This document shows positions 24,349-26,446 of a stretch of 64,000 nucleotides of DNA, piece after piece. The notes below the pieces were generated by a model. That model was given only the letters and a program-made list of their open reading frames with translations, did no database searches and was not told where the DNA came from. The position numbers and the translations under genes were made by a program. The stretch comes from Bacteroidota bacterium (lineage in GTDB: Bacteria > Bacteroidota > Bacteroidia > UBA4408). Numbering within the stretch: the first letter of the stretch is position 1; every line of letters starts with the position of its first letter. The DNA is taken from positions 146,005 through 210,004 of the forward strand of contig CAUJCU010000015.1 in the NCBI GenBank assembly GCA_963169745.1, read 5' to 3'.

Positions 24349-24742
24349 AGTCTTACCATTTTTTTTGAAGAAACTATAAAAGGAGATTTTATTTTTCCCT
24401 TTACTTAATTTCTTCTATGTCTATTCTGAATTTAAGGGATTATACCTATTATTTCTACTAAATTATTCTTTATAAAAATGGGTAATCCTTATCTTTTAAT
24501 GATCTTAATGAAAACACATTTAAACAAACTTCCTTCTTTACTTTCTCAGTACCTATAATTAGATTCTATTTGATGTGTGTTTTTAGAAGAAAATGAATAA
24601 TAACTCCTAACAAGTCAATTTCGTTCATGATAGTACCGGGTATTAGATCTACAGCTTTTAAGTTTGTATATAAATAGAAACTGTATCTGATGTATGTTAA
24701 CCCAAAAGAATTCTGACTAACGTAAATAATATCTACTGTATA

Positions 24743-26105
24743 TCAATTAGTTATAATCCCCAATTCTTCATTAGTCAGTCCAAATTTAGTAATTTGTTTT
24801 TGTATTCTTTTTACTATTCCCAACTTTCTTTTCTGGTCTAAAAATAAATAACCTTCCGGGTTGATGTATTGCACATTTTTTACAACCATGTTCCATATAA
24901 TTACTCCAAATTTTCGGGCAGTAGCACTTATTGCAGAAACTCTACCTTTTCTAAAATTTATTCTTTGGAAAAAGTCTCTTAAAGGTGTTGAGTCTTTAAG
25001 ATTTCCTATGGCATTAGCAGCATTTCGAAATGCTATTTTCAGTCTGTTACTCCCTTTAGGCACTTTACTTGAAAGTACTTTGCCACCACTAACTTTGTTG
25101 TTTGGAGCAAGTCTGAGCCAGGAGCAAAAGTGTTTTGCAGTTGGAAACTTTTTTATTCCTTCTATACCTACTTCACTCATTATGGCAAGCACTGTAGCGT
25201 GACTCATGCCTTCTATTGCCAGCAAATCTGTACTTTCAAACATTTGATACGATTTTAGATTAAGATCTATGTCTTTGGGCGTATTTTTATTGATTCGCTT
25301 ATGCGGTTTTGAATCTATGTGGTGCTGTTTTTTATTTTCATCATTGTTAATGATTTCATCGAGCATTAATGCAATCATCTTGTCACATTCCATCATTTTA
25401 TTTTGGATGTGGTCATAAGTATCGAGTTCCTGCTGGAGTGTAAATAAATAATCTGTTCTTCCATTGCTTTGTAAAGCTTTGGCAATTTCCTCTTCACTCT
25501 TGCGACAGTTGGCATGTCGAAGTGCTGCAAGCTTTTGAGGATTTGCTTCTCCATCGCAGATAGCTCTGATAATGCGTAGTCCGGTAAGTCCACAAACATC
25601 ATTGACCACCACATCTAAGCGCAAATTTAAGAGTCTCAAATATTTCTGCATTTTTTTGCTTGTAGAAGCTGCATTGTGCAAGAGATTGGCTCTGTGTCGG
25701 CAAAAGGTTCTGAGTTGCTCTGTTTTTCCGTCTAGGAGGAAACTACTGCTCAAAAGTCCTAAGCTGTGCAACATTTGAATCCATTGGCAATCTTTAATAT
25801 CGGTCTTTTTGCCCTTGATGTTTTTGGTAAACTTTCCATTGCAAAGGATAACATGGAATCCCTTTGAGATTAAAACGGCATAAAGATTTTTGCCAGTAAG
25901 TACCGGTGCTTTCCATGGCTATGGTTCTAATCTTGTGCTCGTGAAGCCAATCGGCCATTTCATAAAGGTCTTGGTTAAATACGCCAAACGCTCTCACATC
26001 ATTTTCATGTTGCCCTACAGCTACCCAGTGGGAGCGACTACCAACATCAATTCCTGCGGCTAAAGGATTGACAATGTCCATTGGTATTTTTTCTTCTTCT
26101 ACCAT
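24743..26105 (-). pseudogene. IS110-family DEDD recombinase/transposase disrupted by a 1-nt frameshift in a homopolymer (two ORFs 25794..26105 and 24743..25774)
   Basis: The N-terminal ORF ends ...ESTGTYWQKSLCRF... The overlapping frame continues ...NLYAVLISKGFHVILCNGKFTKNIKGKKTDIKDCQWIQMLHSLGLL..., which is the conserved IS110 sequence. Removing one A from the A5 run (minus-strand caaaaatc; plus-strand T5 at 25887..25891) restores ESTGTYWQNLYAVLISKGF. Confidence 0.75.
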
Positions 26106-26446
26106 AAAATAATATTTTATTAAAAATGCTCTACGAAGATGTGCTTTTGGCTAAGTAAATATTCTGAACGGGGTTGTTCTGTTTTCACAAAACACCGCCA
26201 CTGAAGTCATCGCAAACATCTCAACCAGGATTGCGCCCCTACTCGAGGTAACAGTTCTAAAATCGGCCTTGCAAAGAGCAAGTCAAATATAAGGATTTGT
26301 AATTTTTAAATAACTCCCTACGTTAGCTTGAGAAGTCAATGGAGGCGGTATAGGGAGGATTGCTGGTAACACTTTATTAAAGCAAAGTAGGATGTCATTA
26401 CGTATTTGTTACCATACAGAATGATGATTGCGAAACTATTTTTTTA
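26106..26446 (-). ncRNA. candidate IS110 bridge-RNA (seekRNA)-encoding 5' leader of the recombinase
   Basis: Inference only. A 340-bp non-coding region lies immediately upstream of the recombinase start. Its composition is distinctly more GC-rich and less homopolymeric than the surrounding intergenic DNA (26161..26400). It contains potential stems (e.g. CTCCCTA…TAGGGAG, CCGCC/GGCGG). IS110-group elements are known to encode their bridge RNA in exactly this position. Confidence 0.25.

What the first reader, a model, noticed from the sequence alone, without database searches (positions are those of the whole stretch)
24650..26446. IS110-family element inserted in a convergent intergenic 'safe site'; recombinase split by a single-base homopolymer frameshift
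The DEDD recombinase is encoded as two overlapping ORFs. Translation shows ESTGTYWQ then a frame change, and the conserved LYAVLISKGFHVILCNGKF…KTDIKDCQWIQMLH continuation lies in the -1 frame. Deleting one A from the A5 run (plus-strand T5 at 25887-25891) restores an intact ~450-aa IS110 transposase. This is either a recently inactivated copy or a homopolymer sequencing error. IS110-family enzymes are not known to use programmed frameshifting. The element has no inverted repeats, consistent with the family, and sits between the 3' ends of two convergent genes.
Basis: seen in the sequence. Interest (0 to 1): 0.5.

Follow-up and report, generated by a model that had tools for sequence, protein, structure and literature searches.

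The report
Frameshifted IS110 bridge-RNA insertion sequence
This is one dead copy of a common jumping gene of the IS110 family, with its guide-RNA gene still attached, in an uncultured Bacteroidota genome; one extra base really has broken its recombinase gene, so the finding is correct but ordinary.

Summary
On the minus strand, a DEDD/IS110 recombinase gene (start 26105, stop 24743) is split by one extra A in an A-run (plus-strand T5 at 25887-25891). Removing one base gives a 453-aa protein that aligns colinearly with more than 100 intact 452-453-aa homologues, which all read TGG CAA AAT at that point.

The frameshift is not a sequencing error. The same A5 allele is present in independent Logan assemblies of at least 12 sequencing runs, one from a strain that differs by 2 SNPs. 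It is not programmed either, because the relatives have no shift. dN/dS is 0.06, the same as for intact pairs, so the inactivation is recent.

The 254-nt 5' end encodes a roughly 150-nt bridge RNA (26279-26128). A covariance model built on it finds the same RNA upstream of the recombinase gene in 94 related loci, and 28 of its 34 base pairs show compensatory changes. Its loops match the left flank and the right end of the element. The window's RNA also carries a private stem-breaking mutation.

The verdict is a decaying member of a known kind, of low interest. One side observation remains unexplained: one donor-loop guide consistently matches a site inside the left end, not its terminus.

The parts
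24711..26359 (-). The whole IS110-group insertion sequence (1,649 bp, counting the AA core at the right end). A second AA core copy sits just outside, at 26361-26360.
   Evidence: DNA similarity to more than 50 related loci starts and stops at these positions. Multi-copy genomes share sequence only inside them: L018/L019/L021 and L010-L016/L031.
24743..26105 (-). Recombinase (transposase) pseudogene, 453 codons if one A is removed. The catalytic residues D20, E65, D102, D105 and the conserved Ser339-Gly-Gly motif are still encoded, but they are split between two frames.
   Evidence: The frameshift falls between E65 and D102. ORF2 starts at M111, so neither product carries a full DEDD site.
25887..25891 (-). 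The frameshift site: A5 on the coding strand (plus-strand T5), where intact relatives have A4 (TGG CAA AAT).
   Evidence: The same A5 is present in Logan contigs L059 (SRR7293745) and L060 (ERR10655375; the same contig occurs in 11 samples).
26128..26279 (-). Bridge-RNA gene: an outer helix P1 encloses two stem-loops, each with an internal loop.
   Evidence: RNAalifold on 20 elements. Covariance model R1 hits this position at 156 bits and hits 93 other loci, always just 5' of the recombinase gene. Of the paired cells, 95.9% are paired and 28 of 34 pairs show compensatory changes; 0 of 500 shuffles reach this, and slid controls give 34-45%.
26228..26236 (-). 3' side of loop 1 (GCGCAAUCC). It has the same sense as the left flank GC, the core AA and the first 3 nt of the element (TCC). 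I read it as the target guide plus handshake-like bases.
   Evidence: It covaries with the junction across elements, for example GCGUCAUUC, CUUCAACUC and AAUAGAUCC. Cognate pairs match 6.68 of 8 positions against 5.86 +/- 0.08 when permuted, 0 of 5000.
26254..26263 (-). 5' side of loop 1 (AUUUUAGAAC), antisense to the right flank in many relatives. In the window only TTCT matches.
   Evidence: L057 matches 8 of 8 (TTCTAAAA). The family-wide signal is weak: 4.92 against 4.64, 18 of 5000. Suggestive only.
26160..26168 (-). 3' side of loop 2 (GUUCAGAAU), same sense as the right end of the element (GTCAGAA). This is the donor guide.
   Evidence: It covaries with the right end: TCAGAA, TTAGAA, TTATAA and TTAGGA each sit with the matching end. 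All 10 elements with non-consensus guides match 6 of 6.
26200..26215 (-). 5' side of loop 2 (UUGCGAUGACUUCAGU). It matches the internal left-end site S, not the left terminus.
   Evidence: Cognate pairs match 6.46 of 8 against 5.21 +/- 0.09, 0 of 5000. The control against the junction region gives 4.90 against 4.87.
26321..26341 (-). Site S (CATTGAC-TT-CTCAAGCTAACG), 19-39 nt inside the left end. It contains the sub-terminal inverted repeat GCTAACG. Its role is unknown.
   Evidence: GCTAACG is invariant in the 28 close elements, and the part upstream of it covaries with the 5' guide of loop 2.
26239..26239 (-). Private C->G change in hairpin P2 of the bridge RNA. It turns a conserved G-C pair into G-G.
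   Evidence: the pair at columns 29/45 is G-C in 19 of 20 sequences, and the window is the exception. C is invariant in the other 27 sequences.
26284..26291 (-). TAtaTTTG, a match to the Bacteroidota -7 promoter consensus TAnnTTTG, 5 nt upstream of helix P1. It is a candidate bridge-RNA promoter (inferred).
   Evidence: The motif is conserved at this position in the alignment. The consensus itself is from my own knowledge. There are no expression data.
24711..24723 (-). Right end, ACGTTAGTCAGAA, ending in the AA core.
   Evidence: Conserved in essentially all relatives; similarity stops after AA.
26360..26375 (-). Left target half, AAAGTGTTACCAGC + AA. It resembles the family's preferred left target, CGTTAnnnGCAA.
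   Evidence: Left flanks of about 60 elements share CGTT-N5-(G)C-AA.

Best explanation
This is a single, recently inactivated copy of an IS110-group insertion sequence from an uncultured Bacteroidota/Bacteroidia bacterium. These elements are RNA-guided 'bridge recombinase' elements. The copy has the normal two-gene layout: a roughly 150-nt bridge RNA encoded in the 254-nt left end, followed by a DEDD/Ser recombinase gene.

The steps by which such elements move are established for the family (IS621), not shown for this copy. The RNA's two internal loops pair with the target and with the element's own joined ends. The recombinase then exchanges strands at a 2-nt core, which here is AA and is present at both junctions. 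The element therefore landed where the DNA matched its guide (..GCAA|), not in a 'safe site' chosen for any other reason.

After insertion, replication slippage added one A to an A4 run in codon 73. Translation now stops 31 codons later, and the four catalytic acidic residues are split between two frames, so this copy cannot make an active enzyme. The mutant allele is fixed in the natural population that was sampled.

Further small lesions are consistent with the start of neutral decay. They are a broken pair in the RNA, a cluster of SNPs in the left end in some samples, and a Cys171Phe change in one strain.
For: Family assignment and colinearity.

Exact site of the insertion, against A4 in the relatives.

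Real allele, not an error:
- The 103-aa frameshifted ORF1 is found exactly in the collection.
- It occurs in Logan assemblies of SRR7293745 and ERR10655375, and the latter contig recurs in 11 samples.
- Both contigs read GGCAAAAATC.
- L059 differs from the window by 2 SNPs, so it comes from another strain.
- Contigs from both flanks in still more runs all contain the IS junctions.

Recent inactivation: there are no other stops or indels. dN/dS against relatives is 0.058-0.071, compared with 0.070-0.091 among intact pairs.

Ends and core. Logan contig L069 carries a right-end/left-end junction, GTCAGAA|TCCTCCC, in a 94%-identical relative.

Bridge RNA. Guide-DNA covariation. The canonical rules for how the guides pair come from PMC11208160 and PMC11208158.

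Decay marks:
- G at 26239 breaks a pair in hairpin P2.
- Seven SNPs lie at 26276-26317 in L061 and L063, against 0 differences in L061's roughly 7 kb of flank.
- C171F falls on an invariant Cys in L059.
Against: - No reads were inspected directly. The Logan contigs are assemblies, so a minority A4 allele would not be visible.
- No empty site was found, so the insertion event itself is inferred from comparing copies elsewhere.
- The rest of this genome could not be searched for intact sister copies that might supply the enzyme in trans, because it is absent from the genome collection.
- The excess of private replacements at conserved positions (8, against a mean of 1.4) is confounded by the window copy having no close sister in the set. 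dN/dS shows no relaxation. 'Decay' therefore rests on a few individual lesions.
- One of the four expected guide-DNA matches is not canonical (see Noticed in passing).
Confidence: 0.88

Rival explanations
1. The extra A is a homopolymer sequencing or assembly error, and the gene is intact in the real genome.
For: The shift sits in a homopolymer, everything else in the gene is intact, and dN/dS is as low as for functional copies.
Against: The identical A5 sequence was assembled independently from at least 12 runs in different accession series, including a strain variant with 2 SNPs. A 5-base run is short for a systematic error. The contigs are exact over 979 nt, which is typical of short-read data.
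Confidence: 0.04
2. The shift is programmed: +1 ribosomal frameshifting or transcriptional slippage on the A-run restores a full-length recombinase at low level, as a form of regulation.
For: The shift is at a run of A. Some other IS families (IS1, IS3) use A-runs in this way (my own knowledge).
Against: More than 100 homologues at 82-94% identity are single uninterrupted ORFs of 452-453 aa, and their DNA has A4 in frame. The correction needed is +1, not the -1 used by IS1 and IS3. A5 is shorter than the A/T runs I know to support efficient transcriptional slippage. No conserved stimulatory element is present, because the feature is unique to this copy.
Confidence: 0.02
3. The A-run is a reversible on/off (phase-variable) switch for transposase expression.
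For: Homopolymer length changes are reversible in principle.
Against: Every assembly that covers the site shows A5, and no relatives with variable run length were seen. Five bases slip rarely. Additional lesions in the RNA and the C171F change suggest loss of function, not switching.
Confidence: 0.03
4. The truncated products, or the still-encoded bridge RNA, have been kept for a host or regulatory function, for example an RNA or C-terminal fragment that interferes with related active elements.
For: The RNA gene is still 156 bits against the family model, and the guide segments still match this copy's own ends. ORF2 keeps the whole C-terminal domain.
Against: There is no evidence of selection on the split state. 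The RNA carries a private stem-breaking change, and a second haplotype damages helix P1. The frameshift looks too recent for domestication.
Confidence: 0.03

Closest known systems
IS621 and other IS110-group bridge-recombinase elements (Durrant et al. 2024, PMC11208160; Hiraizumi et al. 2024, PMC11208158)
   Same: It has a DEDD RuvC-like N-terminal domain and a Ser-containing Tnp C-terminal domain. The acidic residues fall in the same pattern (D20, E65, D102, D105 here; D11, E60, D102, D105 in IS621). A long left end upstream of the gene encodes a roughly 150-nt RNA with two internal-loop stem-loops. The guides covary with the flank and with the element's end. A 2-nt core is present at both junctions. 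There are no terminal inverted repeats. A relative shows a joined right-end/left-end junction.
   Different: - The core is AA, not CT.
- The protein is about 450 aa, at the upper end of the published 300-460 range.
- The guide that has the same sense as the right end lies on the 3' side of its loop, whereas from memory IS621's left-donor guide is on the 5' side. The site polarity therefore appears flipped relative to the gene. This comparison was not verified against the IS621 sequence.
- The other donor-loop guide matches an internal site, not the left terminus.
- The candidate promoter is of the Bacteroidota type and lies inside the left end.
- This copy is frameshifted.
IS1111-group elements and their seekRNA (Siddiquee et al. 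2024, PMC11187229)
   Same: The transposase superfamily and RNA-guided target choice are the same. This element has sub-terminal inverted repeats (GCTAACG and CGTTAGC/T) with asymmetric terminal extensions, reminiscent of the IS1111 sub-terminal repeats.
   Different: The non-coding RNA region is upstream of the gene, which is the IS110-type layout. The repeat is only 7 nt. The left extension is 32 nt, against 6-7 nt in IS1111.
IS1/IS3-type programmed -1 frameshifting
   Same: A run of A lies at the join between two overlapping ORFs.
   Different: The shift needed here is +1. It is unique to this copy and absent from all relatives, so it is a mutation and not a recoding signal.

Membership tests
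IS110 family (IS110 group), RNA-guided transposase | N-terminal DEDD (RuvC-like) domain, PF01548 | tested here: met
   E = 2.8e-21, residues 17-158 of the repaired protein, in one stretch across the frameshift. D20, E65, D102 and D105 are invariant columns.
IS110 family (IS110 group), RNA-guided transposase | C-terminal Transposase_20 domain (PF02371) with a conserved Ser | tested here: met
   E = 2.7e-11, residues 294-367. S339-G340-G341 are invariant. Equating this Ser with the catalytic Ser241 of IS621 is an inference.
IS110 family (IS110 group), RNA-guided transposase | Scores above the curated cut-off of NCBIfam NF033542 (equivalog) | tested here: met
   202.7 bits, cut-off 140.
IS110 family (IS110 group), RNA-guided transposase | Long non-coding end upstream of the gene encoding a structured bridge RNA with two internal loops | tested here: met
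   No Rfam family matches it, so the structure was derived here from covariation.
IS110 family (IS110 group), RNA-guided transposase | Loop guides complementary to the target (left and right) and the donor (left and right) around a shared core | tested here: inconclusive
   Two guides covary clearly with the left flank plus core and with the right end plus core. The right-flank guide is only suggestive. The fourth guide matches an internal site S instead of the left terminus.
IS110 family (IS110 group), RNA-guided transposase | No terminal inverted repeats, and no target duplication beyond the core | tested here: met
   One search finds no terminal inverted repeat. AA is present at both junctions.
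IS110 family (IS110 group), RNA-guided transposase | Circular or tandem junction of right end to left end | tested here: inconclusive
   Seen only in relatives: L069 (GTCAGAA|TCCTCCC) and L007/L008 (right end followed by a degenerate left end). Not observable for this copy.
Functional (autonomous) IS copy | Uninterrupted recombinase reading frame | tested here: not met
   The +1 frameshift at codon 73 is reproduced in independent assemblies.
Programmed frameshift or transcriptional slippage site | The shift is conserved among homologues at the same position | tested here: not met
   All close homologues are single ORFs with A4.
IS1111 group | Non-coding RNA region downstream of the gene, and 11-13-bp sub-terminal inverted repeats with 6-7 bp and 3 bp extensions | tested here: not met
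   The RNA region is upstream. The repeat is 7 nt, with extensions of 32 nt and 6 nt. The criteria are from PMC11187229.

The most novel reading that the evidence does not exclude
Across about 70 related elements, with recombinases down to about 45% identity, the 5' guide of the donor-binding loop never matches the left terminus. Instead it covaries with a site S about 20-30 nt inside the left end. S has the form half-site-TT-(N6)-CTAACG. That makes it an inverted, donor-like copy of the right end (CGTTAG-N4-AA). The 25-bp terminal stub is thus bracketed by inverted core dinucleotides (AA...TT).

If this is real biology and not yet described, this Bacteroidota clade would use a donor architecture different from IS621. 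The possibilities I can see are a second recombination site, an invertible stub, or a decoy in cis that controls activity. This is a property of the family, not of the frameshift, and I could not find a mechanism that fits all the matches.
Probability: 0.25. Interest if true: 0.5.

Novelty: new member of a known kind. Interest (0 to 1): 0.15.

Why it matters
For genome annotation, the locus should be recorded as one IS110-family pseudogene plus a bridge-RNA gene, not as two small ORFs, with the ends at 24711 and 26359.

Biologically it is a routine case of a mobile element dying in place. The family it belongs to is very widespread in Bacteroidota metagenomes, with thousands of homologues at more than 80% identity, and it is not in Rfam. 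The RNA model and guide map derived here could help annotate it. Bridge recombinases are being developed as genome-editing tools, so the unexplained internal guide match may interest people working on them.

Tried and rejected
- **Rfam scan of the locus:** it returned only a sub-threshold MS2-hairpin hit at 24476-24505, which I treat as chance.
- **Genome collection scan:** the window's own genome is not there, so other copies in the same genome could not be examined.
- **Search for an empty site:** every contig that carries either flanking gene also carries the IS junction. In the nearest related genome (phosphoglucomutase 86% identical), synteny ends exactly at the UXS stop codon. No empty site was found.
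- **Look-up of a hypothetical intact (A4) allele as partial proteins:** this was uninformative, because even the partial ORFs known to be on Logan contigs are not indexed.
- **Relaxed-selection tests:** the private-replacement count is the highest of 116 sequences, but it is confounded by the window copy lacking a close sister. dN/dS shows no relaxation. I therefore rejected the idea of a long-dead copy.
- **Inversion products:** a search for sequences joining the left part of S to the right end found only ordinary right junctions.
- **The conserved GGCCGAUU segment as the missing right-donor guide:** rejected, because it does not covary with the left terminus (alignment, by eye).
- **Sigma-70 promoter and terminator scan:** fewer hits than in shuffled sequence, and not informative for a Bacteroidota host.
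- **Single-sequence folding of the RNA with and without the private G:** it did not reproduce the consensus structure and was not used.
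Full report
**1. The observation**

On the minus strand there are two adjacent ORFs: 25794-26105 (103 aa) and 24743-25774 (343 aa). Translating all three frames shows ...IAMESTGTYWQ followed by 31 out-of-frame codons and a stop. The conserved continuation NLYAVLISKGFHVILCNGKFTKNIKGKKTDIKDCQWIQMLH... runs in another frame. Removing one base yields a 453-aa protein.

That protein matches PF01548 (DEDD_Tnp_IS110) over residues 17-158 in a single stretch that crosses the shift. 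It also matches PF02371, and NCBIfam NF033542, 'IS110 family RNA-guided transposase', at 202.7 bits against a cut-off of 140.

A database search returned more than 7,000 homologues. The best four are 93-94% identical and exactly 453 aa long, and the listed top 120 range from 426 to 490 aa, mostly 452-453. In an alignment of 12 sequences the segment ESTGTYWQ-LYAVL is invariant, and the repaired window protein fits without a gap. At the DNA level the relatives read TGG CAA AAT/AAC CT., while the window reads TGG CAA AAA TCT.

The lesion is therefore an A4->A5 insertion in codon 73. It is +1, because one base has to be skipped.

**2. A real mutation or an error?**

The exact 103-aa ORF1, including its frameshifted tail, and the exact ORF2 are in the public protein collection. 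ORF1 is encoded on Logan contigs assembled independently from run SRR7293745 and from run ERR10655375, and the second contig was seen in 11 samples. Both contigs read GGCAAAAATC. One is identical to the window over 979 nt. The other differs at two positions, so it comes from a different strain. Contigs carrying the left or right flanking gene, from still more runs (the ERR10655363/72 and ERR10643345/48 series, and SRR30163056), all run into the IS.

An error private to one assembly is thus excluded, and both the insertion and the frameshift appear fixed in the sampled population. I did not see reads, so a minority allele cannot be excluded.

The shift is not programmed. It is absent from every relative, it needs a +1 correction, and the run has only five bases.

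**3. How old is the lesion?**

There is no other stop or indel. Pairwise dN/dS between the repaired gene and its four nearest relatives is 0.058-0.071, the same as among intact pairs (0.070-0.091), at dS of about 0.5. Almost all of this copy's history was therefore spent under purifying selection, and the inactivation is recent.

Three small marks of decay do exist:
- A private C->G change at 26239 breaks an otherwise conserved G-C pair in the RNA.
- The SRR7293745 strain has Cys171Phe at an invariant Cys.
- Contigs from ERR10655372 and ERR10655363 carry seven SNPs within 26276-26317, two of them in RNA helix P1, while L061's roughly 7 kb of flank is identical to the window.

The window protein also has the most private replacements at columns that are at least 97% conserved: 8, against a mean of 1.4 and a maximum of 7 among 115 others. 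This count is inflated because the window copy has no close sister in the set, so I give it little weight.

**4. Where the element ends**

BLAST of the region against 58 related loci shows that similarity begins near 26370 and ends near 24708. Genomes with several copies fix the ends. In L018/L019/L021, and in L010-L016 with L031, the copies are identical from TCC... through ...ACGTTAGTCAGAA and unrelated beyond that. In window coordinates the element is 24711-26359, and AA is present on both sides: 26361-26360 in the left flank and 24712-24711 at the right end. This is the behaviour expected of an IS110 core dinucleotide (PMC11208160).

A Logan contig of a 94%-identical relative, L069, contains the joined ends GTCAGAA|TCCTCCC. 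That indicates either a circular intermediate or a tandem copy.

There are no terminal inverted repeats. There is a 7-nt sub-terminal pair: GCTAACG, 33-39 nt inside the left end, and CGTTAGT, at positions -12 to -6 from the right end.

Only one copy, and no fragment, is present in the 64-kb window.

**5. The second gene: a bridge RNA**

The 254-nt left end is conserved far beyond what spacer DNA would show. RNAalifold on 20 distinct elements predicts the following helices:
- an outer helix P1;
- a first stem-loop, with the stem GGCCG/CUGGU and an inner hairpin P2;
- a second stem-loop, with helix P3 and a variable hairpin.

A covariance model built from this alignment finds the RNA immediately 5' of the recombinase gene, on the same strand, in 94 of 99 sources. 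These include elements whose proteins are only 45-60% identical. The window hit is 26280-26127 at 156 bits. On that alignment 95.9% of cells are paired and 28 of 34 pairs show compensatory changes. None of 500 shuffles reaches these values, and sliding the partners by 1-3 columns drops pairing to 34-45%. The alignment is fitted to the model, which favours the structure, but the variable hairpin and P3 show many independent pair types.

A TAnnTTTG box, the Bacteroidota -7 promoter consensus as I know it, is conserved 5 nt upstream of P1. That suggests an internal promoter, but this is an inference.

**6. What the loops read**

In IS621, each internal loop pairs with one strand of the left half-site plus the core, and with the other strand of the core plus the right half-site. 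Short 'handshake' bases next to the right guides pair with the partner DNA after strand exchange (PMC11208160, PMC11208158). The four loop sides in this family behave as follows.

- **3' side of loop 1 (GCGCAAUCC).** It has the same sense as the left junction: flank GC, core AA, and the first three bases of the element, TCC. It covaries with the junction across elements, for example GCGUCAUUC, CUUCAACUC and AAUAGAUCC. Cognate pairs match 6.68 of 8 positions against 5.86 +/- 0.08 in permutations, 0 of 5000. The trailing UCC/UUC tracks the element's first bases and behaves like a handshake guide.
- **3' side of loop 2 (GUUCAGAAU).** It has the same sense as the right end and covaries with it: TCAGAA, TTAGAA, TTATAA and TTAGGA each occur with the matching end. 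All 10 elements with non-consensus guides match 6 of 6.
- **5' side of loop 1 (AUUUUAGAAC).** It is antisense to the right flank in many elements; L057 matches 8 of 8. Family-wide, the signal in this A/T-rich segment is weak: 4.92 against 4.64, 18 of 5000.
- **5' side of loop 2 (GAUGACUUC).** This is the odd one. It never matches the left terminus (control: 4.90 against 4.87). It consistently matches a site S, 22-28 nt inside the left end, at 6.46 of 8 against 5.21 +/- 0.09, 0 of 5000. More than 25 different variants follow this rule.

These permutation figures ignore shared ancestry among the elements, so they overstate independence.

The window copy keeps all of its own matches: GCAA|TCC at the left junction, TCAGAA at the right end, and TGACTTC at S. 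Its target matches the family's preferred site only partly, at GCAA on the left and TTCT on the right.

**7. Context**

Named homologues of the neighbouring phosphoglucomutase come from Bacteroidota/Bacteroidia metagenome-assembled genomes, the best at 86% identity. The host is therefore an uncultured member of that phylum.

The element lies 87 nt beyond the stop of the epimerase/UXS-like gene and 362 nt beyond the stop of the His_Phos_1 gene, and the two genes are convergent. In the nearest related genome, synteny stops exactly at the UXS stop codon, so no empty site is available.

**8. Verdict**

The open question is resolved in favour of a real, recent, non-programmed inactivating mutation. 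The ends needed trimming, and the bridge-RNA gene had been overlooked. The object is a new, decaying member of a well-understood kind, and its interest is low. The only thing a specialist might want to follow up is the family-wide match between a donor-loop guide and an internal left-end site, which I could document but not explain.

Noticed in passing
window 26321-26341 (site S) and 26200-26215 (5' side of RNA loop 2); the same in L001-L151: The 5' guide of the donor loop matches an internal left-end site (CATTGAC-TT-CTCAAGCTAACG) instead of the left terminus. The two covary in more than 25 variants. S looks like an inverted copy of the right-end site, and the 25-bp terminal stub is bracketed by AA...TT. 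No known role was found in the papers read.
   Followed up: partly
window 26276-26317, compared with L061 and L063: Logan contigs from ERR10655372 and ERR10655363 carry 7 SNPs within 42 nt of the left end (26317, 26313, 26307, 26288, 26282, 26277, 26276). L061's roughly 7 kb of flank is otherwise identical to the window. Two of the SNPs weaken RNA helix P1. Possible causes are gene conversion from another copy or a local hotspot.
   Followed up: partly
window 25593 and 25782, compared with L059 (SRR7293745): A second strain with the same frameshift has two further SNPs. One of them changes the invariant Cys171 to Phe.
   Followed up: partly
window 26240-26269, 25291-25321 and about 24865: Independent Logan assemblies all break at the same three points inside the element. 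That suggests other sequences sharing 31-mers with it, either sister copies or related elements, in the same samples.
   Followed up: no
left flanks of L009, L019, L041, L058, L072, L079, L087, L107, L112, L118, L126, L131, L146 and others: Insertions in unrelated genomes sit in one of a few conserved sequences of about 45 nt, for example AAATCCGCCACnnCGCCAAGCnGCAAAACGTTAnnnGCAA| or ..CATAGCCnnGGTCGTTA... The family thus seems to target a conserved repeat of unknown nature. In L126 a group II intron (Rfam RF02001, 58-234 on the minus strand) lies about 260 nt from the junction.
   Followed up: partly
L007 and L008 (right end followed by TTCCCCCTATACC...), and L069 positions 1-30: Relatives show a right end joined directly to a left end: a degenerate second left end in L007/L008 and a clean junction in L069. 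Either tandem insertion at the left junction or circular forms would explain this.
   Followed up: no
one search hit list (P0006, P0051) and L007: Recombinases 79-87% identical to the window protein are attributed to genomes labelled Fervidobacterium, Caldisericia and Atribacteria as well as Bacteroidota. This means either very recent horizontal spread or mis-binned contigs.
   Followed up: no
window 24349-24710: A 362-nt stretch with no ORF lies between the His_Phos_1 gene and the element, and has no match in any fetched relative. Together with the synteny break against L153 at the UXS stop, it suggests the element sits at a rearrangement boundary.
   Followed up: partly
window 59841 and 61934 (plus strand), 8996 (minus strand): Three further matches to the left-target motif CGTTRnnnGYAA carry no insertion. 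About two are expected by chance.
   Followed up: no
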